64,000 nucleotides of DNA from Bacilli bacterium (lineage in GTDB: Bacteria > Bacillota_I > Bacilli_A > RF39 > UBA660). The notes beneath the pieces were generated by a model. The model did not search any database. It was given only the letters and a program-made list of their open reading frames with translations, and was not told the DNA's origin. The DNA is taken from contig JAGBAW010000003.1 in NCBI GenBank assembly GCA_017938725.1, positions 2,980 through 66,979 of the forward strand, written 5' to 3'. Position numbers and translations under genes: made by a program. Of this stretch, positions 1,255-52,187 are shown in pieces (the first letter of the stretch is position 1; each line of letters starts with the position of its first letter).

Positions 1255-2964
1255 TTATAGACAGAAATAACAATTCACAAGGTATGCGACTTTATATCTT
1301 TTAGTTCCCTGTGTATCATATCCTCGAAAAAACTCATAACTACTTCTTAAAATTTGTTGTAGTTTTTTATTTTCATCATTTTCTTTATAAGATAAAAATA
1401 TATTTAACTCCATATTATTTTTATCATTACTTATTTTAGATACGACGATATGGTCAAGTAGTGAACTAATTATTTTAGTTATAGTAGATTTTAAATTAAC
1501 TTTTGAATTCAAGATATTCTCTAGCTCTTTAGTTTTATCAGTATTTCCTTTTATTTTTTTCTTATCTTGTTTTAATTGGTTTAATTCTTTAGTGAGTTCA
1601 TTTATTTTATCATTAAATGAATTATTTCTTTCATAAAATTCTTCATTAGATAAACCACCTTGAATGCTTAATTCTAATATCTTATCTTTCCTAGCATAAA
1701 TATTATTTATCTCTTTTTCTAAAGATTTAATTTCCTCATCAATACCAGTATCTATTTCTAAGTGTTTATAATAATTCATAAGAATATCAATAATACTCCC
1801 TGAATCTATTTGTAATTTAGATATTAGATCTTTAAAAATGGCATCTAATTCTGATTCTCTTATATTAGGTGAATCACAAGTGGTTTTACCTTTTTTTAAA
1901 TATTCTGAACAAACCCAAGTAATGTCTTTTTTATTTTTTCTAAACTCTCTTCTGTGGAAAACAGTACCATGCTCTCCACAATAAATTTTAGCACTATACA
2001 AGTATCTATTTTTATAAATACTTTTATCTTTTTTTCTCTCACTAAATGCTTTTTTTCTTGTTATTAAACGAGTGTTAGCTCTTTCCCACAGTTCTTCATC
2101 AACAATTGGTGGAATTCTAGATTTATCTTCATAGATAACCCAATCATCCTTTTCAAAATATTTTATCTTTTTATTCATATAGTCTACTATTTCTGATTTT
2201 TTAGCACAATAATATCCTTTATATTTAGGATTTTCAATCATTCGTGAAATTGTAGATATGCACCATTTTTTACCTTGACATGTTTTTAATCCTTCACTAT
2301 TTAATGACTTAGCAATTTTAGAAAGAGATAATTCTTCAACTACATAAAGTTCATAAATTCTTCTGACAACTTTAGCCTCATCATCAATGATATTTAATAC
2401 TCCAGTATCCTTATCTTTTTTATAACCATAGAGCATATCATTTCCAAGTATTTCCCCTCGTTCTATAGCACGATTCATACCGAATTTAACACGCTCTGAT
2501 AATCTTCTTATTTCATCTTGTGCCATAGAAGCCATTATTGTTAATCTTAATTCAGAATCAGGTAAGGCAGTATTAATATTATCATTTACAAATAAAACAG
2601 CTACTCCGAAAGACAAAAGTTCTCTTGTATATTTTATACTATCAAGAGTATTTCTTGAAAATCTAGAAATTTCTTTGGTAACAATTAAATCAAATTTACC
2701 ACTTCTAGCATCTTCAATCATCTTCATAAAGTTATCTCTTTTAATATCACTTGTACCAGTTATTCCATCATCTACATAACCTGATATATAAGTCCAATTT
2801 GGATTTCCTTTTATATATTGTTCAAAATGTTCCACTTGATTTTGAAGAGATTTCTTTTGCTCTAGATGATCTGTTGATACTCTTGCATAATCTGTTACTC
2901 TAAGTTTTATACTTGTAAGTGGCATTCCCATATTTAACTGCTTTCGAACAGTATATAAATCCAA
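1255..2964 (-). CDS. large serine recombinase (resolvase/invertase-type N-terminal catalytic domain + recombinase and zinc-ribbon/coiled-coil C-terminal region)
   Basis: N-terminal YARVSTDHLEQ (catalytic Ser) and resolvase-like motifs (GYVDDGITG, RFSRN). Length of 569 aa and a C-terminal Cys cluster are typical of large serine recombinases. Possible TTG start with an AAAGGAG RBS. Confidence 0.85.
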   Translation of the reverse strand: MDLYTVRKQLNMGMPLTSIKLRVTDYARVSTDHLEQKKSLQNQVEHFEQYIKGNPNWTYISGYVDDGITGTSDIKRDNFMKMIEDARSGKFDLIVTKEISRFSRNTLDSIKYTRELLSFGVAVLFVNDNINTALPDSELRLTIMASMAQDEIRRLSERVKFGMNRAIERGEILGNDMLYGYKKDKDTGVLNIIDDEAKVVRRIYELYVVEELSLSKIAKSLNSEGLKTCQGKKWCISTISRMIENPKYKGYYCAKKSEIVDYMNKKIKYFEKDDWVIYEDKSRIPPIVDEELWERANTRLITRKKAFSERKKDKSIYKNRYLYSAKIYCGEHGTVFHRREFRKNKKDITWVCSEYLKKGKTTCDSPNIRESELDAIFKDLISKLQIDSGSIIDILMNYYKHLEIDTGIDEEIKSLEKEINNIYARKDKILELSIQGGLSNEEFYERNNSFNDKINELTKELNQLKQDKKKIKGNTDKTKELENILNSKVNLKSTITKIISSLLDHIVVSKISNDKNNMELNIFLSYKENDENKKLQQILRSSYEFFRGYDTQGTKRYKVAYLVNCYFCL

Positions 2965-3004
2965 TTTTTCTTCTCCTTTCTACTGTCATTATAACATATT
3001 ATTG

Positions 3005-3202
3005 TTAGTAACAAGCATTAGCACCACTTACACTCACAATTTTTAATTCCTTTAAAATATTTTCTTCTGTATATTTAAACATCTTATAAGATATTTTATT
3101 TTCATCAAACAACTCTTTATTTAAGGAAAGAGCCACTTCTAAAAGTATTTCTCTATTTTTATATTTTACTTCTTTACTTCCCATAATATCGTTAAAATTC
3201 AT
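3005..3202 (-). CDS. hypothetical small protein
   Basis: 65-aa ORF inside the element. No motifs. Confidence 0.3.
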   Translation of the reverse strand: MNFNDIMGSKEVKYKNREILLEVALSLNKELFDENKISYKMFKYTEENILKELKIVSVSGANACY

Positions 3203-3268
3203 AACTCATCTCCTTTATTTAAAACTATGAGAAAAATTGTAAAATAATACTTTAAGAAAAAGCAGAAA

Positions 3269-3478
3269 CTATTTAGTATCTAGTTTCTGCTTAGTCTCTT
3301 TTACACGTTTAACCATTAATATGTTTTGAATTGTTTTAATTAGTTTTCTTATTTCATTATGAAGAAGATTATTGTTATCTTTAATCATTTGTATATCTCC
3401 TTTACTTAATATAATCTTTTTAGTTAACTGTGACTGCTCATATTGAATTCTGTTAACAACACTAATATAATCACTCAT
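3269..3478 (-). CDS. hypothetical small protein (possibly remnant of a longer, disrupted gene)
   Basis: 69-aa ORF. The frame stays open ~45 codons upstream of its ATG without a start, which suggests decay. Confidence 0.3.
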   Translation of the reverse strand: MSDYISVVNRIQYEQSQLTKKIILSKGDIQMIKDNNNLLHNEIRKLIKTIQNILMVKRVKETKQKLDTK

Positions 3479-3752
3479 TATTTTAGTTATTTCATTTTTA
3501 CATTCAATATCTTCTTTATATAAGGATTCATAAATACAAGCACTTCTAACATACGAAGCAAAATGTGGTCCAAATCCATACTCTATTGCTTTTTCTGTAA
3601 TTATTCTTATTTCTTAGTCATTTAACATAATATTAATTTTCTTTCTACATCATCTATATCCATCCATTTATTTTTCAGATTATCATCTCCATCTTATGAC
3701 ATATAGTATAATTTTAATCTATCAAGCATGGTGTTATCACACCCTTTTCTTG

Positions 3753-3770
3753 TTAGGGATGAATCCCTAA
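3753..3770. repeat. perfect 8-bp inverted repeat TTAGGGAT-ga-ATCCCTAA in a non-coding stretch of the element
   Basis: Seen directly in the sequence. It is not followed by a T-run. Confidence 0.4.
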
Positions 3771-4004
3771 GACCTATAGTCTCCGACAGTTTAGATATAT
3801 TTTACTCATATAATCACACTCCTTTCTTGTAAGATAATTAAAAAAGGGCACAAAAAAAGAGATAAAGTCTCTCAAAATTAGTCTTTCTTCTAATTACTCT
3901 ATATTATCATTTTAACACATTTTTTTAGGACATGCAACGGACATATTTTTAAAAATATACTCACTATTGTTATTTTATCTTTATAAATAAATAGAAAAAT
4001 CATT

Positions 4005-4553
4005 TTAATTTTTTTTGATTTCTTGCAAAGTTAACTGTTTATTTTTTTCTTTTCGCTTTTCATTTTTATATGCTTTATTTAAATTATCTAATAGTTTTAT
4101 CCATCCACTACCAATTACTTCTTCTGCAAAGGCAATGCCATCTGTGGAATAGTGAAGCATTGTTTGACCTAATAGTGAAATACTCATTTCGCTATGACCT
4201 TGTTGATGAGTAAGCTTACTAATTTCTTCCCAAGATTCACCATTAGCAATATGTTCCATTATTTCTCCAGCTTCTTCATAAGCATGTAATTCTGATTCTA
4301 TTGAATAATCATCAACTTCTCCAGCTAGATATATAAGTTTTTGTATTGTTTTTGTCCAATTAACCTTCTCTTCTTCTTTACAATAAACAGAATATTTTGA
4401 CATCTTTTGTATATAGTCATTAGCTATATAGCTTAAAAATTTTCCATCTTTAGTTATAAAGAGAAGTTTTGACATTTTCATATCTCTGACAGCATTTTCT
4501 GCTGTTACTTCAAACATTTTATCTACAAATTCTTTTGATTCTTCTTTTGACAT
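4005..4553 (-). CDS. hypothetical protein (182 aa), element cargo
   Basis: Compact ORF co-oriented with and immediately downstream of the RhuM-like gene. No motifs recognised. Confidence 0.5.
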   Translation of the reverse strand: MSKEESKEFVDKMFEVTAENAVRDMKMSKLLFITKDGKFLSYIANDYIQKMSKYSVYCKEEEKVNWTKTIQKLIYLAGEVDDYSIESELHAYEEAGEIMEHIANGESWEEISKLTHQQGHSEMSISLLGQTMLHYSTDGIAFAEEVIGSGWIKLLDNLNKAYKNEKRKEKNKQLTLQEIKKN

Positions 4554-4612
4554 CTAAAATCCCCCAGTCAATTGTTTTATATTGTATACTTTAAAATAAT
4601 TATTAGCAATAC

Positions 4613-5599
4613 TTATTTATCAATTTCTTCTATTTCTTTATTTAAGGCTTCTAGGTAATCTTGTTCAGCAGTAGTTAAATGTTCTTGCATATATTTATCA
4701 TATTCTTCATGTGCTTTTTTTAATGCTTGTTCATGAGATATTTTTCCACTACCTTTTAATATATCTTTTCTAGTCATTTTTAAAAATGAGTCTAATTCAT
4801 TCACCCAATCTTGCATTGTCATTGAATGTCTATCTAGTGCATTAATTTCAGCAACATCTAAATAAGCGGATACCATTCTATTTAAAGTATTAAGTTCCTC
4901 TTCAGTTAAATAGTTTTTAGCAATTTCAGTTTCACTTTTTGTTGGATAATTACCTTTAAAATTAGTAAGTCCTAAATTTTCTTTATTAGAATCAATCCTA
5001 TAAAATATTACCTCAGCAGCAGTATTGCCATGGGTAGCGTAGTGCATTTTATTTTGAACTGTTTTAAAGAAATCTATTGATAATTTATCTTTAGGATTAT
5101 AGTCAATTGAAGTTGCATAAATATCTAATACTTTTCTCCAGAATATTTTCTCTGAAGATCTAATATCACGAATTCTGGCAAGTAATTCTTCAAAGTATGG
5201 ACTTTCACCGTTATTTTTTAATCTTTCATCATTTAAAGCAAAACCTTTAATCATATATTCTTTTAAAACTTTGGTTGCCCATATTCTAAATTCGGTTGCT
5301 TTTTTAGAATTAATTCTATATCCAACAGCTATAATAGAATCCAAATTATAGTGTTCTATATTTCTTTTAACTTTTCTTTTGCCTTCGTTTTGAACTGTCA
5401 AGAAATTCTTGACAGTTAAATTTTTATCAAGTTCTTCTTCTTTAAATATATTATTTAGATGATAACTAATATTTTGTTTAGTAGTATCATAAAGATTAGC
5501 CATTACATCTTGGCTCATCCAGATATCTTCATTTTGTATATTAACATCAACTTTTACATTACCATCTTTTGATACATATATAAGCATATTGTTTTTCAT
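4613..5599 (-). CDS. RhuM-family (virulence-protein RhuM-like) cytoplasmic protein
   Basis: Sequence pattern typical of the RhuM family (N-terminal ...NIQNEDIWMSQ..MA.LYD......I..HL.NIF.E.EL...., RINSKKATEFRIWATKVLKEY, EELLARIRDIR). Confidence 0.75.
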   Translation of the reverse strand: MKNNMLIYVSKDGNVKVDVNIQNEDIWMSQDVMANLYDTTKQNISYHLNNIFKEEELDKNLTVKNFLTVQNEGKRKVKRNIEHYNLDSIIAVGYRINSKKATEFRIWATKVLKEYMIKGFALNDERLKNNGESPYFEELLARIRDIRSSEKIFWRKVLDIYATSIDYNPKDKLSIDFFKTVQNKMHYATHGNTAAEVIFYRIDSNKENLGLTNFKGNYPTKSETEIAKNYLTEEELNTLNRMVSAYLDVAEINALDRHSMTMQDWVNELDSFLKMTRKDILKGSGKISHEQALKKAHEEYDKYMQEHLTTAEQDYLEALNKEIEEIDK

Positions 5600-5618
5600 A
5601 AGCTAATCTCCTTTCTAT

Positions 5619-6203
5619 TTATTTATTTTTATTTTTATTTCCAACTTCTTTTGCGTTTTCTAAAATATCATTAATGAATTCATTCATTGTACAACCATAT
5701 ATAGGTTTGTCATATTCATAAATATGTAAACAATTTAATATTTCCTCATTTATAGGATTTCTTTGTTTATTGTGTTCAATATGTTTTTCTTTTTGATAAT
5801 TAATAGCATCTTGATAAGTTTCAAATTCATATATTCCTCTATTATTGAAATCAGAGTGTTCAAAATAATAATACTTTCCATTATTTTCAAATACTAAATA
5901 TGTATGAGTTAAATAGGAATTATCATAAGGAAGTTCAAACCATATAAAAAATGTTTTAAAATTATAATTATGAGTTTTGAACCAATCTCTTTCTAATTCA
6001 ACCTGATCCCAGCAATGTCCATATCCTACTTTGATTAATCTTTCTGGACTAGATAAATGCCATTTTGTTTGACAGCCCTCTTGAAATTCTCGGTTATTCC
6101 ATGGTACATATTCTTTTTCACTATCATCTACAAATCCATACTTTATATTATCATCCATATATTTTAATAATTGTTCTGGTGTTTTAACATCATTATATTT
6201 CAT
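5619..6203 (-). CDS. hypothetical protein (194 aa) with conserved His/Cys pair (GYGHCWDQ), element cargo
   Basis: ORF with ATG and short spacing to the RhuM gene. A possible Cys/His hydrolase, but the fold is not assignable by eye. Confidence 0.5.
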   Translation of the reverse strand: MKYNDVKTPEQLLKYMDDNIKYGFVDDSEKEYVPWNNREFQEGCQTKWHLSSPERLIKVGYGHCWDQVELERDWFKTHNYNFKTFFIWFELPYDNSYLTHTYLVFENNGKYYYFEHSDFNNRGIYEFETYQDAINYQKEKHIEHNKQRNPINEEILNCLHIYEYDKPIYGCTMNEFINDILENAKEVGNKNKNK

Positions 6204-8335: not shown

Positions 8336-9256
8336 ATGAATTTTGACTATAAGTTTGGGAATCAGTATTATAATTATTTTTATCCAAAAGGTATTCAAAG
8401 TACTGAATATCTAATTATGGCTCCGGAGCAATCACAGAATAGTCAGCCAGGTATGGAATATTTAATGAATCCAAGACCAATATTTGATAATCCTAGTTAT
8501 AAAGGAAGTGGTAAATTAAAAGGAAAAGTTGCAATTATAACAGGGGGAGATAGTGGACTTGGAAGGGCATGTGCAGTTGCCTTTACTAAAGAGGGTGCAA
8601 AAGTGGTAATACCTTATTATAATGAACATGAAGATGCAAGTGAGACCAAAAATTACATAGAAAGATTAGGTGGAGAATGTTTATTAATATCAGGGGATAT
8701 TACAGATAAAAGCTTTTGTAAATTAATTGTTAAAAAAACATTGCAAAGATTTGGGAAAATAGATATACTTGTAAATAATGCAGGTGTTCAATACGAGCAG
8801 GACAGTTTAGAATGTATTAGTGATGAACAATTTGACTGGACAATGAAAGTGAATGTATATGGAATGTTTTATTTAACTAAAGAGGTTTTACCTTATTTAA
8901 AAGAAGGTTCATCTATAATAAACTTAACTTCAGTTACTACTTTTTATGGAGATCCACAATTAATTGATTATGTTACAACTAAGGGCGCTATTGTAGGATT
9001 TACAAGAGCACTTGCAAGAAATTTAGCACTAAAAAAAATAAGAGTTAATGCAATTGCACCAGGATTTTTTTGGACACCACTTCAGCCAGCCTGCTGGGTA
9101 AAAGAAAAAATTCCCTCATTAGGTGCCGATGCTGCAATGAGAAGAGGTGCTATGCCATATGAACTTGCCCCTACATTTGTTTTTTTAGCCTCAGATGATT
9201 CAAGCTATATGACAGGGCAAGTTATACATAATAATGGTGGTCAAGTAATGGGGTAA
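8336..9256 (+). CDS. SDR-family oxidoreductase (YhdF/YghA-like)
   Basis: GKVAIITGGDSGLGRA Rossmann motif, NNAG, catalytic YxxxK. GGAGG RBS. Confidence 0.85.
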   Translation: MNFDYKFGNQYYNYFYPKGIQSTEYLIMAPEQSQNSQPGMEYLMNPRPIFDNPSYKGSGKLKGKVAIITGGDSGLGRACAVAFTKEGAKVVIPYYNEHEDASETKNYIERLGGECLLISGDITDKSFCKLIVKKTLQRFGKIDILVNNAGVQYEQDSLECISDEQFDWTMKVNVYGMFYLTKEVLPYLKEGSSIINLTSVTTFYGDPQLIDYVTTKGAIVGFTRALARNLALKKIRVNAIAPGFFWTPLQPACWVKEKIPSLGADAAMRRGAMPYELAPTFVFLASDDSSYMTGQVIHNNGGQVMG

Positions 9257-9735
9257 AGGAATCTTAATACAGGTTTCTTTTTTTGCAATTAAAAGTCTCC
9301 TTTGAAATATTTCATAGTGAAAGTAGTTGGCAATCTGTTTATTCAGTTTTTGGGACAATTATATCTTCGACAAGTGTAAGTAAATTTACTAAACATTTTA
9401 CATATTTAAAAAGATTAATATGTAATTTTAGCTATTTTATAATATTTATATTACTATTGATGTTGATAGATTATATAGGAGTTATCAATATTAATCAAGC
9501 ACCTAGATTTTTATTAGTTAAAGTATCAGGAGATGATACTATTTACTATGATACACCATTTATGATGTTATTAGGTGTAATGTAAATAATGATAAGGAGG
9601 TTTTTACAGTAATAAGAAATCAAAAATATGATAGAGATAATATAGATGAGCTTTGTAAATAATAAAGTATTAGAATATGAAAATAGTAACGTACTTGATA
9701 ATATTATTTATAATTATTTAAATATTTGTCAGAAG

Positions 9736-9764
9736 TTGACATTAATTATTAATTGAAGTATAAT
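9736..9764 (+). promoter_or_regulatory. near-consensus sigma-70-type promoter (TTGACA-17 nt-TATAAT) for the RiPP precursor gene
   Basis: TTGACA at 9736-9741, TATAAT at 9759-9764, 17-nt spacer. AAAGGAGG RBS at 9771-9778, ATG at 9786. Confidence 0.6.
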
Positions 9765-9785
9765 TTTTTTAAAGGAGGAACTATA

Positions 9786-10010
9786 ATGGATAAAAAAATT
9801 ATTGAATTTAAAAATAATAAAAACAAAATATTTGTTGATGGTAATTTAGCATTAAAATCACATAAAGAAGATTTTAATAAAAAGAATCCAGATGAAGAGA
9901 AATATACTGCACCAAAAGTAAAGAAAATGGTTTTTGAAAAAACTAATTCAAAAATTGTTATGGGATGTTGGCAACAAAGTTATACATCAAATGGTGGAGA
10001 CGGTTGTTAA
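9786..10010 (+). CDS. putative RiPP precursor peptide (74 aa; charged leader, C-terminal core ...KIVMGCWQQSYTSNGGDGC)
   Basis: Strong promoter and RBS. Lys/Glu/Asp-rich leader-like region with a short Cys/Trp/Tyr/Gly-rich C-terminus. Lies immediately upstream of an RRE-radical SAM-SPASM-type enzyme. Confidence 0.6.
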   Translation: MDKKIIEFKNNKNKIFVDGNLALKSHKEDFNKKNPDEEKYTAPKVKKMVFEKTNSKIVMGCWQQSYTSNGGDGC

Positions 10011-10016
10011 ATTAAT

Positions 10017-10055
10017 AAGCTTTTATGAATTGCATTTCATAAAAGCTTTATTATT
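10017..10055 (+). terminator. 13-bp perfect hairpin (AAGCTTTTATGAA-ttgcat-TTCATAAAAGCTT) followed by TATTATT: putative attenuator between precursor and maturase
   Basis: Seen directly. Placement after a precursor gene is typical for setting precursor-to-enzyme stoichiometry in RiPP operons. Confidence 0.55.
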
Positions 10056-10067
10056 AGAAAGGAAATT

Positions 10068-11318
10068 ATGAAAGATTTTGTAATTAGGCAAGGAGAGGAA
10101 ATAACCTTTGCGATTAATATAAAAGAATCAGAAACAATATATGAATTTGATGGTGTTTCTAAGATTATTTTCGATAATATGGATAAAGATTGGAAATATA
10201 TATCAAATATATTAAAAGATAAGTATAACAATGTATCCGAAAAAGAAATGGAAGATGATTATATTAATTTTATTAATGAATTAAAACTATTAAGAATAAC
10301 AAGTGATAATATTGAAAACATAATTATTAATATTGAAAATTGTGATATAAAAAATGCTTCTGTTGAAATTATAAATAGTTGTCCATTTAAATGTGATCAT
10401 TGTTATGTATCAAATAAAAAACAACAAATTAATATAAATGATTATAGAAAAATAATAGATCAATTATCAAGTTTAAATTGTGTGGAACTATTGATAACCG
10501 GTGGAGAACCATTTCTTCATCCAAATTTTATTGAAATGTATTTATATGCAAAGAGTAAAGGAATATTAGTAAGCATCAATTCTAACATTTTTTTATTAAA
10601 TGATAAAATATTAAATGTTATATGTGAGTATAAGCCGAAAGTAATAGAAGTAAGTTTATATGGATTTGATAATGATAGTTATTTTAAATTTACTCATGTA
10701 AAAAATGCATATTCAATAATAAATAAAAATATTACTAGTTTAATTAATAATAATATAAATATAAGTTTAAAGTCTGTCTTGACTAAAAAAAGCATGGATT
10801 ACATTTATATATTAAAAAAATATGCTGACAATTATAAAATACCATTTAGATATGATTATATAATTTTTCCTAATCAAGATGGATTAAAAGATAATCCTGA
10901 AAGATGTTCTCCAGAAGAAATTGTTAGTGTATTGAAAAAAGATGAAGACACTGTAAACTTTTTTAGAAGTAAGGTAAAAAATATTCCCACAAATATAGAA
11001 GATAATTGTTATATATTTCAATGTAGTATTGGGAAAGATAGAATATTTATTAGTTCAAATTTAGATATAAGACCATGTCTTGTTGTACCTTTCAAATATA
11101 ATTTGTCAAAATATACCATTAAAGAAGCATACTATAAATTTAAGAATATTTCTAAAATATATAAAAATAATAAAGATAATAAGTGTATAAATTGTAATAA
11201 AAAATCAATATGTAGATATTGCCCTGGCAAATTTTATATGGAAACTGGAAGTTTTGAAACTATACCGGATTTTTATTGTGACTTAGCAAATAAAATAATA
11301 AAGGAGTTTAGTTTGTGA
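10068..11318 (+). CDS. radical SAM peptide-maturase-like protein (N-terminal PqqD-like RRE region, Cx3Cx2C core, Cys-rich SPASM/twitch-type C-terminal domain)
   Basis: CPFKCDHC motif at ~aa 105-112. The N-terminal ~95 aa resemble a PqqD-like peptide-binding domain. C-terminal cysteines: CYIFQC...C...CINCNKKSICRYCPG. Confidence 0.9.
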   Translation: MKDFVIRQGEEITFAINIKESETIYEFDGVSKIIFDNMDKDWKYISNILKDKYNNVSEKEMEDDYINFINELKLLRITSDNIENIIINIENCDIKNASVEIINSCPFKCDHCYVSNKKQQININDYRKIIDQLSSLNCVELLITGGEPFLHPNFIEMYLYAKSKGILVSINSNIFLLNDKILNVICEYKPKVIEVSLYGFDNDSYFKFTHVKNAYSIINKNITSLINNNINISLKSVLTKKSMDYIYILKKYADNYKIPFRYDYIIFPNQDGLKDNPERCSPEEIVSVLKKDEDTVNFFRSKVKNIPTNIEDNCYIFQCSIGKDRIFISSNLDIRPCLVVPFKYNLSKYTIKEAYYKFKNISKIYKNNKDNKCINCNKKSICRYCPGKFYMETGSFETIPDFYCDLANKIIKEFSL

Positions 11319-11319
11319 T

Positions 11320-11802
11320 ATGATAAAAGTATATGACGGAAATAAAATTAATGATACTATATTAGATCAAATGTATAAAATTTTAATTGAAAATTTATTT
11401 ATCACGTATCCCTCTTTTTTAGATAATAGAGATAAACATGATAATGAAAAAAATTATAACATATGGACTAATATGATAAAAACAACAGAAAATTATAATG
11501 TAATTATATATAAGGAAAATAATAAAGTTTTTGGATTTTTAAATTATTGTATTATAGATTCGAATTTATGGATTTCAGAAGTTCAAATAAAAGATGAATA
11601 TAAAAACAAAAGAATATTAAAAAAATTAATAAATAAATTTGTTTTAATAGAAAAAAATAGAAAATATTCTACTGTTACAATACATATAAACGATGAAAAT
11701 ATATTATCTAAAACAGTTTTTGAACATATTGGGTTCAAATCTGTCGGGGACACATTATATAAAATAAATATAAAAGATTTAATTGATTGGAGTATTTGTT
11801 AA
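11320..11802 (+). CDS. GNAT-fold acetyltransferase-like protein (tentative)
   Basis: Translationally coupled to the rSAM gene (TGA-a-ATG). Central and C-terminal pattern is reminiscent of GNAT motif A/B (KNKRILKKLINKF...VFEHIGFK), but the signature is weak. Confidence 0.5.
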   Translation: MIKVYDGNKINDTILDQMYKILIENLFITYPSFLDNRDKHDNEKNYNIWTNMIKTTENYNVIIYKENNKVFGFLNYCIIDSNLWISEVQIKDEYKNKRILKKLINKFVLIEKNRKYSTVTIHINDENILSKTVFEHIGFKSVGDTLYKINIKDLIDWSIC

Positions 11803-11840
11803 TTATAAATATATACAATTAAATAATATTTTAGGACATG

Positions 11841-11960
11841 AAATGGATAAAAATTCAGTATGTAAGGATTTTAGATTAATTAAATTAATAAATGGAAGTG
11901 ATAATTCTTATGAAGATTTAATTTATAAGTATAATATATCCCTTTGTGTTCCCAAAAAAT
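11841..11960 (+). pseudogene. N-terminal fragment of a sigma-70-family (ECF/TcdR-like region 2) factor
   Basis: 39-aa ORF MDKNSVCKDFRLIKLINGSDNSYEDLIYKYNISLCVPKK-stop resembles the start of sigma region 2. It is followed by further short broken ORFs up to ~12100. Confidence 0.4.
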
Positions 11961-12186
11961 AAAAATGATAAATTTAAGTATTCAATTAAGAGAAATGAGC
12001 ATAGAAAAATTAAATTTAGATATAGATAAACTAAGCAAGCTTCCTATATTAGAAATAGAAAGATAACAAGTTAAAAAATTACATATTTGAAGTAATTTTT
12101 TTTTGCCAAATAATTAAAAAATAATGCAAAGAATATACCATAAAAAGACAATATATGATAAAATATTTGTCAGAAAGGTATTAATT

Positions 12187-14280
12187 ATGAATTTAGACAG
12201 TTTAAATGAAAGACAGAAAGAGGCAGTGATAAATACAGATGGTCCAATGTTAATACTTGCGGGCGCAGGATCAGGTAAAACTAAAGTTTTAACAACAAAA
12301 GTTGCATACCTTATAAATGAAAAAGGTGTATATCCTGAAAATATACTTGCTATTACATTTACAAATAAGGCTGCTAAGGAAATGAAATCAAGAATATATC
12401 CCATTGTAGGTAATGGCGCATTTAAGTTACAAATATCAACATTTCATTCATTTGGTCTTAAAATAGTTAAGGAAAATTCAAGATTACTTGGGTATGATAG
12501 TAATTTTACAATACTTGATGCGGATGATTCTTTATCTGTTATAAAGAAGATATTAAAAGATTTAAATATAGATTCTAATAAGTATAATCCAAAAGCAATA
12601 AGAAATGTAATTAGTAATAATAAGAATGAAATGATAGATTCTAAGGATTATGAAAAATTTGTTCATACTGATTTTGATGAAGTAGCAAAGGAAGTATATC
12701 AAAAATATGAGAGAAACTTAAAATTAAGTAATGCGATGGATTTTGATGATTTATTAGTTCTCCCTTTAAAATTATTTAAAGAATATCCTAGAGTATTAGA
12801 AGAATATCAAGAAAGATATAAATATGTATTTATAGATGAATATCAGGATACTAATGAGCCACAATATATATTGTCTAAGATGATAGCAGCTAAATATAGA
12901 AATATAACTGTAGTTGGAGATGCTGATCAAGCAATATTTACTTGGAGGGGAGCAAATTATAAAAATATATTAAATTTTGAAAAAGATTACCCTGATGCTA
13001 AGGTAGTATTACTTGAGGAGAATTATAGATCTACTAAGACAATACTAAATGCTGCAAACAATGTTATTAAAAATAATAAGATAAGAAAAGAAAAAAATTT
13101 ATGGACTGAGAATGAAGATGGATGTAAAATTGTATATTATAAGGCATTTGATGAAAAAGATGAATCTAATTATGTTGTTCATGAAATTAAGAGATTAATT
13201 GAAGGTGGAGTTAGCCCAAATGATATATGTGTTTTATATAGGGCAAATGCTCAGTCTAGAACAGTTGAAGAATCATTCTTAACTAGTAATATTTCCTATA
13301 ATATAGTTGGGGCTTATGCATTTTATAATAGAAAAGAAATAAAGGATTTAATTGCTTATTTAAAACTATTATATAATAGCAAGGATGATGTATCACTTCT
13401 TAGAATTATTAATTATCCAAAAAGAGGAATAGGAAGTAAAGCAATAGAAAATTTAAGTATAAAGAAAGATGTTTTAGAAAAATCTTTATATGAGGTTATT
13501 GATTCTGGGAAGGAATTACAATTTAAAAATCTAATTGAGGATATTAGAAAAGATATCGATAAGTTATCTTTAACGGAACTTATAGACTTAGTGCTTGATA
13601 AATCAGGTATTAGAAATGAACTTGAGAGTGAAAAAACTATTGAAGCTGACATAAGACTTGAGAATCTTGAAGAATTTAAGTCCATAACAAAATCATTTGA
13701 AGAAAAAGAAGGAATAGTATCATTGGGAGAGTTTTTAGACGAATTATCTTTAGTAAGCGATGTTAGTGAGCAAAAAGATGATACAAAAGAAAAGGTAACT
13801 CTTATGACAATGCATGCTGTTAAAGGATTAGAATTTGACTATGTATTTGTAGTTGGATTTGAGGAAGGACTTTTTCCACATATAAACTGTATGGAGTCAA
13901 ATGATGAACTAGAGGAAGAGAGAAGACTTTGTTATGTTGCAATAACAAGAGCAAAGAAGAAATTGTATTTAATAAATGCAAGAAGTAGAATTCTATATGG
14001 ACAAGTTTCTTCTAATATTCCTAGTAGATTTATAAAGGAAATAGGGGAAAATTTACTAGAAACAATTGGTAAAAAGGAAGAGTTTGTATATAAAGAAAAA
14101 ATAGATAAAAGTAAAATGTTTAATGATGATAATGACTTACATCCTGGAGATGTAGTTAATCATGATAAATATGGAATGGGAGTTGTAATATCTATAGATG
14201 GATCTATTGCAACAATATCATTCAAAAAAGATGGAATGAAAAAATTAATGAAAAATCATAAAAGCATAAGGAAGGTATAA
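12187..14280 (+). CDS. pcrA: ATP-dependent DNA helicase PcrA (UvrD family)
   Basis: AGAGSGKT Walker A, UvrD helicase motifs throughout, C-terminal Tudor-like tail. Start chosen at MNLDSLNERQKEAV. Confidence 0.9.
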   Translation: MNLDSLNERQKEAVINTDGPMLILAGAGSGKTKVLTTKVAYLINEKGVYPENILAITFTNKAAKEMKSRIYPIVGNGAFKLQISTFHSFGLKIVKENSRLLGYDSNFTILDADDSLSVIKKILKDLNIDSNKYNPKAIRNVISNNKNEMIDSKDYEKFVHTDFDEVAKEVYQKYERNLKLSNAMDFDDLLVLPLKLFKEYPRVLEEYQERYKYVFIDEYQDTNEPQYILSKMIAAKYRNITVVGDADQAIFTWRGANYKNILNFEKDYPDAKVVLLEENYRSTKTILNAANNVIKNNKIRKEKNLWTENEDGCKIVYYKAFDEKDESNYVVHEIKRLIEGGVSPNDICVLYRANAQSRTVEESFLTSNISYNIVGAYAFYNRKEIKDLIAYLKLLYNSKDDVSLLRIINYPKRGIGSKAIENLSIKKDVLEKSLYEVIDSGKELQFKNLIEDIRKDIDKLSLTELIDLVLDKSGIRNELESEKTIEADIRLENLEEFKSITKSFEEKEGIVSLGEFLDELSLVSDVSEQKDDTKEKVTLMTMHAVKGLEFDYVFVVGFEEGLFPHINCMESNDELEEERRLCYVAITRAKKKLYLINARSRILYGQVSSNIPSRFIKEIGENLLETIGKKEEFVYKEKIDKSKMFNDDNDLHPGDVVNHDKYGMGVVISIDGSIATISFKKDGMKKLMKNHKSIRKV

Positions 14281-51219: not shown

Positions 51220-51339
51220 GTTGCCTCCTATAACATGATTATATCATAATTTTAATATAATAAATAAAATATCTTTTTAAATATTGATAAAAATAAAAAA
51301 TATGGTATAATAAATTTGTCTAAAGCAATTATAAAGGAG

Positions 51340-51537
51340 TAGTAATATAATTAATATTTTAAAGAGAGTTAGCGTTTGGTGCAAGCTAATAATGTTGTTA
51401 TATGAATTCACCTTTTAGCAGTATAATGAAAGTTATAACGTTTATCTAGCGTTAATAGATTAAAGAGCATAGAAAGTCTATGAAGTAAGGTGGTACCGCT
51501 CCTAATATAGGAGTCCTTACATCTAGACTTTTTTATT
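51340..51537 (+). promoter_or_regulatory. T-box riboswitch leader (Phe) upstream of HAD-pheS-pheT
   Basis: T-box sequence AAGGTGGTACCGCTCC, overlapping terminator GTAAGG...CCTTAC plus T-run. Confidence 0.6.
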
Positions 51538-51551
51538 TTAGGGAGGTTAAT

Positions 51552-52187
51552 ATGAAAAGGAGATTTATATTTGATTTAGATGGAACCTTATTACACGGGG
51601 ATTTTTCTAAAGAAAGAGAGTATTTTAGGAGCGTCTTATCAACTGAAGAACAAGAATTATTCCTGCCTAAATATTTTGATGTTTTAATGGAATATGAAAA
51701 CATATTTGATAGATATGATGTAGAGAAATTAAGTGATTTTCTAAGTAAGAAAACAAGAACTAATATTACTCCAAATATGATTAATGAATGGATAACAATA
51801 AATTGTAATATTAATGACATATTATTGCCTGAAACCATTGATATGCTTGAATATCTAAAATCTAGAAAAAAGAGTTTAGTTATATTAACGAATTGGTTTA
51901 GAAAAGGTCAAGAAACAAGATTATATAATGCAGATATACGTAAGTATTTTGATGAAATATATGCAGGGGACTTTTATATTAAACCTACAAAGGAAAGTTA
52001 TCTAAATGCATGTGGAGATTATGATAAAAATGAATGCATTGTAATAGGTGATAATTTACAGAAGGATGTCTATGGACCAAACAAATATGGAATCGATTCT
52101 ATTTATTATAATCCAAATAATAAGGAATGCGATAAAACAATGGTGTTAAGTATAGATAGTTTTGAGAGAATAAAGGAGATGTTTTAA
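51552..52187 (+). CDS. HAD-superfamily hydrolase
   Basis: FDLDGTL motif I and downstream HAD motifs. Confidence 0.7.

What the first reader, a model, noticed from the sequence alone, without database searches (positions are those of the whole stretch)
9736..11802. Compact radical-SAM/SPASM RiPP-like operon: precursor + RRE-rSAM maturase + GNAT-like partner, with no exporter or protease
The operon sits in the non-coding gap between an SDR gene and pcrA and has four tightly arranged parts.
- A near-consensus promoter (TTGACA-17-TATAAT) and AAAGGAGG RBS drive a 74-aa ORF. It has a charged K/E/D-rich leader and the C-terminal core KIVMGCWQQSYTSNGGDGC.
- A 13-bp perfect hairpin follows the precursor.
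- Next is a 416-aa enzyme with an N-terminal PqqD-like peptide-recognition region, a CPFKCDHC radical SAM cluster motif and a Cys-rich C-terminal auxiliary-cluster (SPASM/twitch-like) region.
- A 160-aa GNAT-like ORF is translationally coupled to it.

The core has only two Cys plus Trp/Tyr/Gln/Asn. That does not fit the 6-Cys SCIFF/ranthipeptide pattern. It is more suggestive of a single thioether or an aromatic C-C/C-N crosslink (streptide/cyclophane-type chemistry), so the class is unassigned and possibly new. No ABC exporter or leader peptidase is present, which hints at an intracellular or signalling role, or reliance on a generic protease.
Basis: partly seen in the sequence, partly recalled or inferred. 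Interest (0 to 1): 0.85.

Follow-up and report, generated by a model that had tools for sequence, protein, structure and literature searches.

The report
Uncharacterised radical-SAM plus acetyltransferase peptide cassette
This is a real three-gene cassette (a small, probably strongly expressed peptide, a radical-SAM enzyme that should cross-link its tail, and an acetyltransferase-like partner) that recurs as a unit in a few dozen uncultured low-GC gut-type bacteria. It belongs to the well-known family of enzyme-modified peptides, but to a branch that has not been described or curated.

Summary
Window 9736-11802 holds a 12/12 consensus promoter, a consensus RBS, a 74-aa ORF, a perfect 13-bp hairpin, a 416-aa RRE/radical-SAM/SPASM enzyme and a 160-aa GNAT one base after its stop.

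Comparative data make this a conserved system.
- All 24 related loci with the relevant DNA encode a small ORF beside the rSAM.
- 63 distinct precursors all end in Cys and carry C-[W/Y]. 51 of 63 end N-x-x-D-x-C.
- A hairpin follows the precursor stop in every locus checked, with unrelated sequences.
- The PqqD-like domain is fused or encoded separately.
- The GNAT is separate or fused to the rSAM C-terminus.
- No exporter, protease or other neighbour recurs.

No curated NCBIfam model reaches its cut-off, and the literature searches found no description. The closest solved structures are the peptide maturases CteB, SuiB and SkfB.

Best reading: a RiPP-type cassette in which the leader-docked rSAM installs a cross-link in the C-terminal 10-16 residues, most likely a Cys thioether, and the GNAT acylates the peptide. 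The chemistry, the GNAT target and the biological role are inferred, not shown.

Verdict: a new variant of a known kind, of moderate interest.

The parts
9736..9764 (+). Sigma-70-type promoter, TTGACA-17-TATAAT
   Evidence: The only 12/12 match in 9200-12300. Related loci carry 11-12/12 matches 12-47 nt upstream of their precursor start codons: L001, L007, L010, L016, L022, L026 and L030.
9771..9778 (+). Shine-Dalgarno sequence AAAGGAGG, 7 nt before the ATG
   Evidence: Read directly from the sequence. Most related precursors also have an AAGGAGG-type site.
9786..10010 (+). Precursor peptide, 74 aa. The leader carries the motifs GNLALK and Y-x-x-P-K-V-K-K.
   Evidence: All database entries are named 'hypothetical protein'.
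9960..10007 (+). Conserved core MGCWQQSYTSNGGDGC. It holds the invariant C-W and C-terminal Cys, and the motif N-x-x-D-x-C at the end.
   Evidence: Among 63 distinct family members, 63 end in Cys, 58 have CW, 5 have CY and 51 end N-x-x-D-x-C. Codon changes at the invariant positions are synonymous.
10017..10048 (+). Perfect 13-bp hairpin with a T-rich tail: a leaky terminator or attenuator between the precursor and the enzyme genes
   Evidence: A hairpin in the same position, with unrelated sequence, follows the precursor stop codon in all the related loci examined. Only 19 nt separate it from the rSAM start, which leaves no room for a second promoter.
10068..11318 (+). RRE / radical SAM / SPASM enzyme, 416 aa. 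The RRE is about aa 1-75. The CX3CX2C motif is C105/C109/C112. The seven C-terminal Cys are C319, C337, C373, C376, C382, C385 and C404.
   Evidence: Pfam, alignment A1, AlphaFold2 model with pLDDT 91.3, Foldseek top hits CteB, SuiB and SkfB. The SPASM model TIGR04085 aligns end to end at 22.7 bits.
11320..11802 (+). GNAT-fold acyltransferase-like protein, 160 aa. Its start codon lies one base after the rSAM stop.
   Evidence: Pfam, AlphaFold2 model with pLDDT 90.3, Foldseek matches to GNATs including NatD, RimI, PaiA and GCN5. It is fused to the rSAM C-terminus in P0009-11, P0018, P0023-25 and P0027.

Best explanation
This is a self-contained RiPP-type maturation cassette.

Shown or directly read from sequence: a consensus promoter and RBS sit in front of the 74-aa precursor. 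A hairpin with a weak U-tract follows its stop codon, and the enzyme genes have no room for a promoter of their own.

Inferred steps:
1. The hairpin terminates most transcripts, so the enzyme genes are transcribed by read-through at a lower level than the precursor.
2. The N-terminal PqqD-like RRE of the rSAM docks the leader, probably on the widely conserved Y-x-x-P-K-hydrophobic segment.
3. The radical SAM/SPASM domains abstract a hydrogen atom and install an intramolecular cross-link in the C-terminal 10-16 residues. These residues are bracketed by the invariant C-[W/Y] and the invariant terminal Cys.
4. The most likely cross-link is one or two Cys-derived thioethers (sactionine or ranthionine type), with the conserved Asn or Asp of N-x-x-D-x-C as candidate acceptors.
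5. The GNAT, tethered to the same enzyme in many relatives, acylates the peptide. Cores almost never contain Lys, so the likeliest target is an alpha-amine exposed after leader removal.
6. Processing and export, if any, depend on generic host factors.

My sub-probabilities:
- The rSAM modifies this peptide: about 0.85.
- The modification is a thioether: about 0.4.
- The GNAT transfers an acyl group to the peptide: about 0.5.
For: Conservation of the unit:
- The precursor lies beside the rSAM in 24 of 24 informative loci, in unrelated genomic neighbourhoods and even in a permuted gene order in L007.
- Core invariants hold across 63 precursors, with synonymous codon changes at the invariant positions.
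- The PqqD/RRE is universal. It is either fused or a discrete protein above the Pfam cut-off, at 27-48 bits.
- The GNAT is fused to the rSAM in at least 8 database proteins and many loci, a Rosetta-stone type of link.

Expression layout:
- The hairpin after the precursor is conserved in position but not in sequence.
- Consensus promoters recur upstream of the precursors.

Enzyme identity:
- The AlphaFold2 model matches CteB, SuiB and SkfB over its full length.
- The best PDB sequence hit is the sactisynthase SkfB, at 1.4e-19.
- The best full-length RiPP models in NCBIfam are AlbA and StsB. In the distant L020 clade PapB also matches.
- Exactly seven invariant C-terminal Cys are present. That count led to the proposal of a substrate-binding open site on Aux I in AlbA, and CteB shows such a site (PMC6231123).
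- The core shares x-M-G-C-W with SkfA, whose Cys4 is the thioether donor (PMC8172795). The SkfA sequence itself is from my memory, and hhalign aligned only these 6 columns.
Against: - No chemistry was observed.
- The enzyme is about equally distant from thioether-, C-C- and ether-forming SPASM maturases. Every NCBIfam score lies far below its cut-off.
- The invariant aromatic residue (W, or Y in 5 of 63) would fit an aromatic cross-link as well as a thioether.
- The strictly terminal Cys suggests chemistry that needs the free C-terminus, which ordinary sacti- and ranthipeptides do not.
- The resemblance to SkfA is a 6-column motif at 22% hhalign probability, not homology.
- The window GNAT lacks the usual Q/R-x-x-G-x-G/A signature (it has K-N-K-R-I-L). 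An invariant Phe sits where many GNATs have the catalytic Tyr (the motif assignment is from my own knowledge). It may therefore be non-canonical or non-catalytic.
- Many cores have no obvious acyl acceptor.
Confidence: 0.75

Rival explanations
1. The cross-link is centred on the aromatic residue. The rSAM would link the invariant Trp/Tyr ring to a nearby side chain. The link could be C-C, as in streptide or cyclophane (triceptide) peptides, or C-O-C, as in daropeptides. The two Cys would then form a disulfide or serve another purpose.
For: The aromatic residue after the first Cys is invariant as W or Y in 63 of 63 precursors. SuiB, which forms a Lys-Trp bond, is as good a structural match as CteB. 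WgkB and DynA models give hits in NCBIfam. A class IV daropeptide cluster has the same precursor + rSAM + N-acetyltransferase layout without a transporter (PMC9055067).
Against: Only 1 of 63 cores contains Lys, so there is no K-x-x-x-W. There is no W-x-W motif. The residues two and three positions after the Trp vary widely. Two invariant Cys are better explained as reaction partners. All these HMM scores lie far below their cut-offs.
Confidence: 0.2
2. The chemistry acts on the C-terminal Cys. The rSAM would oxidatively decarboxylate or heterocyclise it, as MftC does on a terminal Tyr or SbtM does on Cys/Sec. The product would be a small reactive or redox-active end group, possibly released as a small molecule or cofactor.
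For: Cys is the last residue in 63 of 63 precursors, and N-x-x-D-x-C has fixed spacing to the terminus. The MftC and SbtM models are among the NCBIfam hits, at 46.7-72 and 47-53 bits. No exporter is present, which would suit an intracellular product.
Against: The cluster has no peptidase, flavoenzyme or other tailoring gene of the kind found in cofactor pathways. This reading does not explain the invariant C-[W/Y] at a variable distance from the terminus. All scores lie far below their cut-offs.
Confidence: 0.12
3. The rSAM and GNAT act together in an Elp3-like way. Acetyl-CoA bound by the GNAT would be the radical substrate, and an acetyl or carboxymethyl unit would be added at carbon, for example on the aromatic ring. 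It might then be captured by a Cys.
For: Recurrent rSAM-GNAT fusions have the same domain order as Elp3 (the Elp3 architecture is from my own knowledge). Most 11-residue cores have no conventional N- or O-acyl acceptor. The GNAT motifs are non-canonical.
Against: The enzyme carries an RRE and a two-cluster SPASM domain typical of peptide cross-linkers. It shows no Elp3-specific domain hit. The distant L020 clade modifies a C-W...C precursor without any GNAT. A GNAT beside RiPP enzymes usually performs simple N-acylation.
Confidence: 0.06
4. The small ORF is not the substrate. The rSAM/GNAT pair would modify another molecule, such as a cofactor, a lipid or RNA, and the ORF would be a regulatory leader peptide.
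For: No product has been observed. The hairpin after the ORF could be read as an attenuator.
Against: A PqqD/RRE peptide-binding module is universal in the family. The ORF tail is conserved at the protein level with synonymous changes. The ORF stays with the enzyme when the gene order is permuted in L007, where it has its own promoter.
Confidence: 0.04

Closest known systems
Sactipeptide and ranthipeptide systems with RRE-rSAM-SPASM/twitch maturases (AlbA/subtilosin, SkfB/SKF, CteB/thermocellin, PapB/freyrasin)
   Same: The enzyme has the same three modules: an RRE, a radical SAM core and a Cys-rich C-terminal cluster domain. Its best structural and sequence matches are in this group. Cys-containing cores are a shared feature. 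The seven-Cys SPASM count matches AlbA and CteB (PMC6231123). Asp and Asn acceptors are known in ranthipeptides (my own knowledge).
   Different: No family HMM cut-off is reached. The core motif C-[W/Y]...N-x-x-D-x-C with an obligatory terminal Cys is not that of any described member. The fourth SPASM spacing is CX2C rather than CX3C. The cluster has an obligate GNAT partner and no protease or ABC transporter.
Sporulation killing factor (skfABCEFGH) of Bacillus subtilis
   Same: SkfB is the best PDB sequence hit, at 1.4e-19. SkfA carries C-M-G-C-W, with Cys4 as the thioether donor and a Cys1-Cys16 disulfide (PMC8172795; sequence from memory). The 11-residue subtype here has the similar C-G-C-W...C.
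   Different: Only 6 columns align, at 22% hhalign probability. The SkfB equivalog model scores 28.5 bits against a cut-off of 300. SkfB has a one-cluster twitch domain. The partner genes skfC, skfE, skfF, skfG and skfH are absent. Here the peptide ends at the second Cys.
Class IV daropeptide cluster of Photorhabdus asymbiotica (precursor + DarE-like rSAM + putative N-acetyltransferase, no DarBCD)
   Same: It has the same minimal three-gene logic: precursor, rSAM/SPASM enzyme and N-acetyltransferase, with no dedicated transporter (PMC9055067). Its core contains Trp. The role of its acetyltransferase is also unknown.
   Different: It is proteobacterial. Its core is W-based without Cys. The DynA/DarE models score far below their cut-offs here. 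Whether it has an RRE or a fusion to the acetyltransferase was not examined here.
SCIFF (six Cys in forty-five) cassettes of Clostridia
   Same: A compact precursor + rSAM/SPASM pair without exporter or protease, found in anaerobic Firmicutes (my own knowledge).
   Different: SCIFF cores have six Cys and a different conserved sequence, and carry no GNAT. The precursor here matched no NCBIfam model at E <= 1.
GNAT-tailored RiPPs (selidamides; microviridin MdnD and goadsporin GodH N-acetylation)
   Same: A GNAT encoded beside RiPP maturases acylates the peptide (PMC10849128; MdnD and GodH from my own knowledge).
   Different: Those GNATs act on Lys or Orn side chains or on a freed N-terminus, in clusters with other enzyme classes. 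None is reported fused to an rSAM/SPASM maturase. Cores here lack Lys.

Membership tests
RiPP biosynthetic cluster (operational definition) | A short precursor with a leader and a conserved core, co-localised and co-conserved with a maturase | tested here: met
   The precursor lies beside the rSAM in 24 of 24 informative loci. The core invariants hold in 63 sequences. Codon changes at the invariant positions are synonymous.
RiPP biosynthetic cluster (operational definition) | The peptide is actually modified after translation | not testable with these tools
   This needs co-expression and mass spectrometry.
Radical SAM superfamily | A CX3CX2C cluster motif within a Radical_SAM domain | tested here: met
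   C105, C109 and C112 are invariant in 21 sequences. PF04055 scores 55.3 bits against a cut-off of 29.5.
SPASM subfamily | A seven-Cys motif C..C-gap-CX2CX5CX3C-gap-C that binds two auxiliary clusters | tested here: met
   Seven invariant Cys are present: C319, C337, C373, C376, C382, C385 and C404. The spacing is CX17C ... CX2CX5CX2C ... C, so the last spacing and the Gly position deviate from the canonical motif. The model overlays CteB and SuiB over its full length.
SPASM subfamily | The curated HMM threshold is reached (TIGR04085 or PF13186) | tested here: not met
   TIGR04085 aligns over 1-93 of 93 positions but scores 22.7 bits against a cut-off of 27. PF13186 gave no hit at E <= 1.
PqqD-like RiPP recognition element | A winged-helix domain of three strands and three helices, homologous to PqqD | tested here: met
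   The window domain alone is sub-threshold, at 20.1 bits against 23.4. It is homologous to the discrete 83-aa protein of L014 (4.9e-7). That protein and its counterparts in L017, L020, L026 and L031 pass the PqqD cut-off at 27-48 bits. The AlphaFold2 model shows strands 4-8, 12-17 and 24-28 followed by helices 29-36, 42-52 and 58-74.
GNAT superfamily | The GNAT fold and a Pfam hit above the gathering score | tested here: met
   Acetyltransf_10 scores 29.3 bits (cut-off 23.6) and Acetyltransf_1 24.5 bits (cut-off 20.7). Foldseek gives 594 PDB matches at E <= 0.001, and the 50 listed are GNAT-type acetyltransferases.
GNAT superfamily | The canonical acyl-CoA pyrophosphate-binding signature Q/R-x-x-G-x-G/A, and catalytic competence | tested here: inconclusive
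   The window protein has K-N-K-R-I-L at this position, and the fused relatives have Q-G-x-x-x-I/L. An invariant Phe134 sits where many GNATs have Tyr. Activity cannot be judged from sequence.
Sactipeptides | A thioether from Cys sulfur to an acceptor alpha-carbon | not testable with these tools
   This needs MS/MS and NMR.
Sactipeptides | The maturase belongs to a characterised sactisynthase family (AlbA, SkfB or StsB equivalog cut-offs) | tested here: not met
   AlbA scores 57.6 bits against 850, StsB 38.6 against 625 and SkfB 28.5 against 300.
SKF system | Partner genes skfC (protease/cyclase), skfEF (ABC transporter) and skfH (thioredoxin-like) | tested here: not met
   No such genes flank the cluster in the window. 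None recurs across 26 loci.
SCIFF / ranthipeptides | A six-Cys SCIFF core, or a PapB/CteB-type maturase above its cut-off | tested here: not met
   Family tails have 2-4 Cys. The precursor hits no NCBIfam model. PapB scores 56 bits against 340, and only in the distant L020 clade.
Streptide-type (Lys-Trp) | A K-x-x-x-W motif in the core | tested here: not met
   Only 1 of 63 cores contains any Lys.
Daropeptides | A W-x-W-type core and a DarE/DynA-family maturase | tested here: not met
   The core has a single aromatic residue next to Cys. DynA scores 38.6-43 bits against 450 in relatives.
Mycofactocin / PQQ type peptide-derived cofactors | An MftC or PqqE equivalog plus the pathway genes (peptidase, flavoenzyme or PqqB/C) | tested here: not met
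   MftC scores 46.7 bits against 265 and PqqE 33.9 against 381. No such neighbours are present.
Elp3-like rSAM-GNAT enzymes | An Elp3-specific domain architecture: an rSAM with the Radical_SAM_C domain fused to a KAT domain, and no SPASM or RRE | tested here: not met
   Pfam gave only Radical_SAM, Fer4_12 and PqqD on the rSAM. A SPASM domain and an RRE are present.

The most novel reading that the evidence does not exclude
The cassette makes a new kind of modified peptide in which the radical SAM/SPASM enzyme and its tethered GNAT cooperate. One possibility is radical, Elp3-like C-acylation of the invariant Trp/Tyr. Another is acyl capture of a radical-generated intermediate together with the obligatory C-terminal Cys. 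Either would give a cross-link or end group not seen in any RiPP class. With no exporter or protease, the product could act inside these small-genome, low-GC bacteria as a signal or redox factor rather than as a bacteriocin.
Probability: 0.1. Interest if true: 0.85.

Novelty: new variant of a known kind. Interest (0 to 1): 0.55.

Why it matters
If confirmed, this would add a defined and experimentally tractable rSAM-RiPP family. It has only three genes, a 10-16 residue core and clear invariant residues to mutate.

It would also give a natural series of rSAM-GNAT fusions in which to ask why an acyltransferase is physically coupled to a radical peptide cross-linker. The same unanswered question has been noted for the acetyltransferase of a daropeptide cluster (PMC9055067).

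The strictly C-terminal Cys and the fixed N-x-x-D-x-C spacing point to chemistry or recognition that depends on the peptide terminus, which is unusual among thioether peptides.

The family sits in uncultured, very AT-rich Bacilli (25.6% GC in this window), whose specialised metabolism is, to my knowledge, little studied.

It is not a conceptual surprise. Genome mining has already shown that large numbers of uncharacterised rSAM-RiPP families exist.

Tried and rejected
- **Single-sequence precursor search.** It returned only the identical protein. A profile built from locus-derived ORFs was needed.
- **Literature.** Searches for the motif strings GCWQ and GCWASK, and for combinations of radical SAM, SPASM, GNAT and RiPP, found nothing describing this family.
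- **Homology to SkfA.** hhalign aligned only 6 columns at 22% probability. I kept this as a motif resemblance only.
- **Named rSAM families.** NCBIfam assignment of the rSAM, of a fused relative and of a distant-clade relative reached no cut-off.
- **Phage origin.** IMG/VR gave only one relative, at 22% identity.
- **Conserved accessory genes.** All-against-all clustering of neighbours in 26 loci found none. The ABC genes upstream in the window are an importer-type pair, ABC_tran plus BPD_transp_1.
- **Extra small genes in the flanking spacers.** Regions 9257-9735 and 11803-12186 show no similarity to any related locus by blastn or tblastx. The 100-aa, 36-aa and 59-aa ORFs there are probably not genes.
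- **GNAT against PDB by sequence.** This was uninformative, with a best E-value of 0.016. Fold search was needed.
- **Leader motif versus RRE form.** I looked for a simple correlation between the GNLALK motif and a fused versus discrete RRE and found none. Short-leader precursors occur with both forms.


Full report
**1. Observation**

- A TTGACA-17-TATAAT promoter lies at 9736-9764. It is the only 12/12 match in 9200-12300.
- AAAGGAGG lies 7 nt before the ATG at 9786.
- A 74-aa ORF (9786-10010) ends in MGCWQQSYTSNGGDGC.
- A perfect 13-bp hairpin with a 6-nt loop and a T-rich tail lies at 10017-10048. Its RNA fold is -15.9 kcal/mol, z = -3.5.
- A 416-aa ORF runs from 10068 to 11318.
- A 160-aa ORF (11320-11802) starts one base after the preceding TGA.

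The flanking genes are an importer-type ABC pair, an SDR, PcrA, a nucleotidyl transferase and LigA. The rest of the window is core chromosome: PolC, PolA, TopA, SerRS, PheST and MiaB. GC content is 25.6% for the window and 20.8% for the cluster. The identical rSAM protein is annotated 'MAG: Bacilli bacterium'.

**2. The proteins**

*The rSAM.*
- It has a Radical_SAM domain at 55.3 bits and a sub-threshold PqqD match over aa 21-73.
- In an alignment of 21 homologues, C105/C109/C112 are invariant. So are seven C-terminal Cys: C319, C337, C373, C376, C382, C385 and C404. These form a SPASM-like pattern with CX2CX5CX2C.
- The SPASM domain model TIGR04085 aligns end to end, but at 22.7 bits it is just under its cut-off of 27.
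- An AlphaFold2 model (pLDDT 91.3) shows an N-terminal domain of three strands and three helices, a partial TIM barrel and a C-terminal cluster domain.
- Its best PDB fold matches are the three solved RRE-bearing peptide maturases CteB, SuiB and SkfB. anSME and PqqE follow.
- By sequence profile the best PDB hit is SkfB, at 1.4e-19.
- No NCBIfam equivalog comes near its cut-off, for the window protein, a fused relative or a distant relative.

*The 160-aa protein.* It passes two Pfam GNAT models. It folds as a GNAT (pLDDT 90.3) and matches acetyltransferases including NatD, RimI, PaiA and GCN5. Its CoA-binding signature is non-canonical in the window copy.

**3. Comparative evidence**

*Enzyme homologues.* The rSAM has about 40 clear homologues (E <= 1e-14) among 5.8 billion proteins. 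They come in four architectures:
- RRE-rSAM with a separate GNAT, as in the window;
- an RRE-rSAM-GNAT fusion of 585-600 aa;
- an rSAM-GNAT fusion without the RRE;
- an rSAM alone of about 350 aa.

One genome locus and 70 metagenome loci were retrieved.

*The precursor.*
- In every locus that includes the relevant DNA (24 of 24), a small ORF beside the enzyme ends in a related tail. In L007 the ORF follows the GNAT instead of preceding the rSAM, and it has its own promoter.
- A profile search found 25 annotated precursors, all named 'hypothetical'.
- An exhaustive HMM search of 1.84 billion representatives found 39 clusters.
- Among 63 distinct precursors, 63 end in Cys, 58 have C-W and 5 have C-Y. 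51 end in N-x-x-D-x-C with fixed spacing to the terminus. Only one has a Lys in the core.
- The distance from C-W to the terminal motif falls into discrete classes: cores of 10, 11 and 12-15 residues.
- Codon comparison shows synonymous changes at the invariant Gly, Cys and Asp positions.

*The RRE.* Where the rSAM lacks the N-terminal domain, a discrete 83-101-aa protein lies between the precursor and the rSAM. These proteins pass the Pfam PqqD cut-off at 27-48 bits. The one in L014 is homologous to the window N-terminus.

*Expression signals.* A hairpin follows the precursor stop codon in every locus examined, with unrelated sequences. Consensus or near-consensus promoters and strong RBSs precede the precursors.

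*Neighbours.* Clustering neighbours across 26 loci shows nothing recurrent except the rSAM/GNAT. Synteny appears only among close relatives.

*The distant clade.* L020, L021 and L023 have the core LGCWNCGGSSGGSC. They lack the GNAT but add a HemN-like rSAM, an HPr-kinase-like protein and a B12-rSAM.

**4. Mechanism**

Shown: the unit precursor + RRE + rSAM/SPASM (+ GNAT) is conserved, and the small ORF is under protein-level selection.

Inferred from the anatomy:
- The precursor is made in excess, from a consensus promoter and RBS followed by a leaky terminator. Only 19 nt separate the hairpin from the rSAM start.
- The leader docks on the RRE. The most widely conserved leader segment is Y-x-x-P-K-hydrophobic.
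- The rSAM cross-links the C-terminal tail.

I favour thioether formation, at about 0.4, for four reasons:
- The nearest sequence and HMM relatives are sactisynthases: SkfB, AlbA and StsB, plus PapB in the distant clade.
- Two Cys are invariant in the core.
- Conserved Asn and Asp are known ranthionine acceptors (my own knowledge).
- Seven SPASM Cys leave one Aux I site open for a substrate thiolate, as proposed for AlbA and seen in CteB (PMC6231123).

The core also shares x-M-G-C-W with SkfA, whose Cys4 is the thioether donor (PMC8172795). This is only a motif resemblance, and the SkfA sequence is from my memory.

Three rival chemistries remain open:
- a Trp/Tyr-centred cross-link;
- chemistry that requires the terminal Cys, such as MftC- or SbtM-like reactions;
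- an Elp3-like cooperation of the rSAM and the GNAT.

The GNAT target is unknown. Cores lack Lys, and the 11-residue cores lack Ser, Thr and Tyr. An alpha-amine freed by a host protease is therefore the simplest acceptor.

**5. Comparison with known systems, and novelty**

The cassette works like an RRE-dependent rSAM/SPASM RiPP system. It is not a member of any curated family:
- the sactisynthase, ranthipeptide, streptide, daropeptide, mycofactocin and PQQ tests all failed on HMM cut-offs, core motifs or partner genes;
- the precursor matches no NCBIfam or Pfam model;
- no paper in the held library describes it.

The closest architectural precedent is a class IV daropeptide cluster with an rSAM, an N-acetyltransferase and no transporter (PMC9055067).

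I rate it a new variant of a known kind. The distinguishing traits are the C-[W/Y]...N-x-x-D-x-C-COOH precursor family and the obligate, often fused, GNAT.

**6. Verdict**

The chemistry and the role are open. Interest is moderate (0.55): the family is clean, compact and testable, and it carries one unusual feature, the rSAM-GNAT coupling. It lies within a class already known to be very diverse.

Noticed in passing
window 1255-6203 (- strand): A large serine recombinase (1255-2964; Resolvase, Recombinase and Zn_ribbon_recom domains) and a RhuM-family protein (4613-5599) lie with two ORFs that have no Pfam hit. This looks like a small integrated mobile element about 3.5 kb to the left of the cassette. 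I found no evidence that the cassette belongs to it.
   Followed up: partly
window 51319-51521 (+): A T-box leader (Rfam RF00230, 119 bits) lies upstream of a HAD-family hydrolase (51552-52187). The hydrolase is followed by pheS and pheT.
   Followed up: no
window 9736-11802 compared with the whole window: The cassette has 20.8% GC against 25.6% for the window. Together with its different neighbourhood in every lineage, this hints at horizontal spread as a unit.
   Followed up: partly
window 9257-9735 and 11803-12186: Two long spacers flank the cassette. They hold small ORFs of 100, 36 and 59 aa. Neither spacer is similar to any related locus, and no terminator-like site follows the GNAT, so transcription may read through towards pcrA.
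   Followed up: partly
L027 3813-4866 and L028 944-1997: These are decayed copies of the cassette. The precursor ORF is truncated to 28 aa (KKVFKNENITIVMGCWQQRYVANDGDGC). Only the last 115 aa of the rSAM remain. The GNAT is intact.
   Followed up: no
L016 3962-5247: The rSAM is split into two ORFs (3962-4768 and 4807-5247). This is either a frameshift or pseudogene, or an assembly error, in an otherwise complete cassette.
   Followed up: no
L007 4001-6021: The gene order is permuted to rSAM-GNAT-precursor, directly downstream of EF-Tu. The precursor has a GTG start and its own TTGACA-17-TAAAAT promoter.
   Followed up: partly
L020 2270-7726, L023 2-4964, L021: This distant clade has the core LGCWNCGGSSGGSC, a discrete PqqD protein and no GNAT. 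It carries extra enzymes: a HemN-like rSAM, an HPr-kinase-like P-loop protein and a B12-binding rSAM. This suggests a more heavily tailored relative of the family.
   Followed up: partly
P0086, P0091, P0102, P0107, P0117: Five precursors have C-Y in place of C-W (for example MGCYQFSWPANDGDGC). The requirement is therefore for an aromatic residue, not for indole specifically.
   Followed up: no
window rSAM residue C281 (about 10908-10910): A Cys in the linker between the rSAM core and the SPASM domain (PERCSPEE) is conserved only in the closest clade (the window protein, P0002-P0004, P0006 and P0007) and is Leu in the other aligned relatives. In SuiB a linker Cys supplies the eighth ligand to Aux I, so cluster ligation may differ between subclades.
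   Followed up: no
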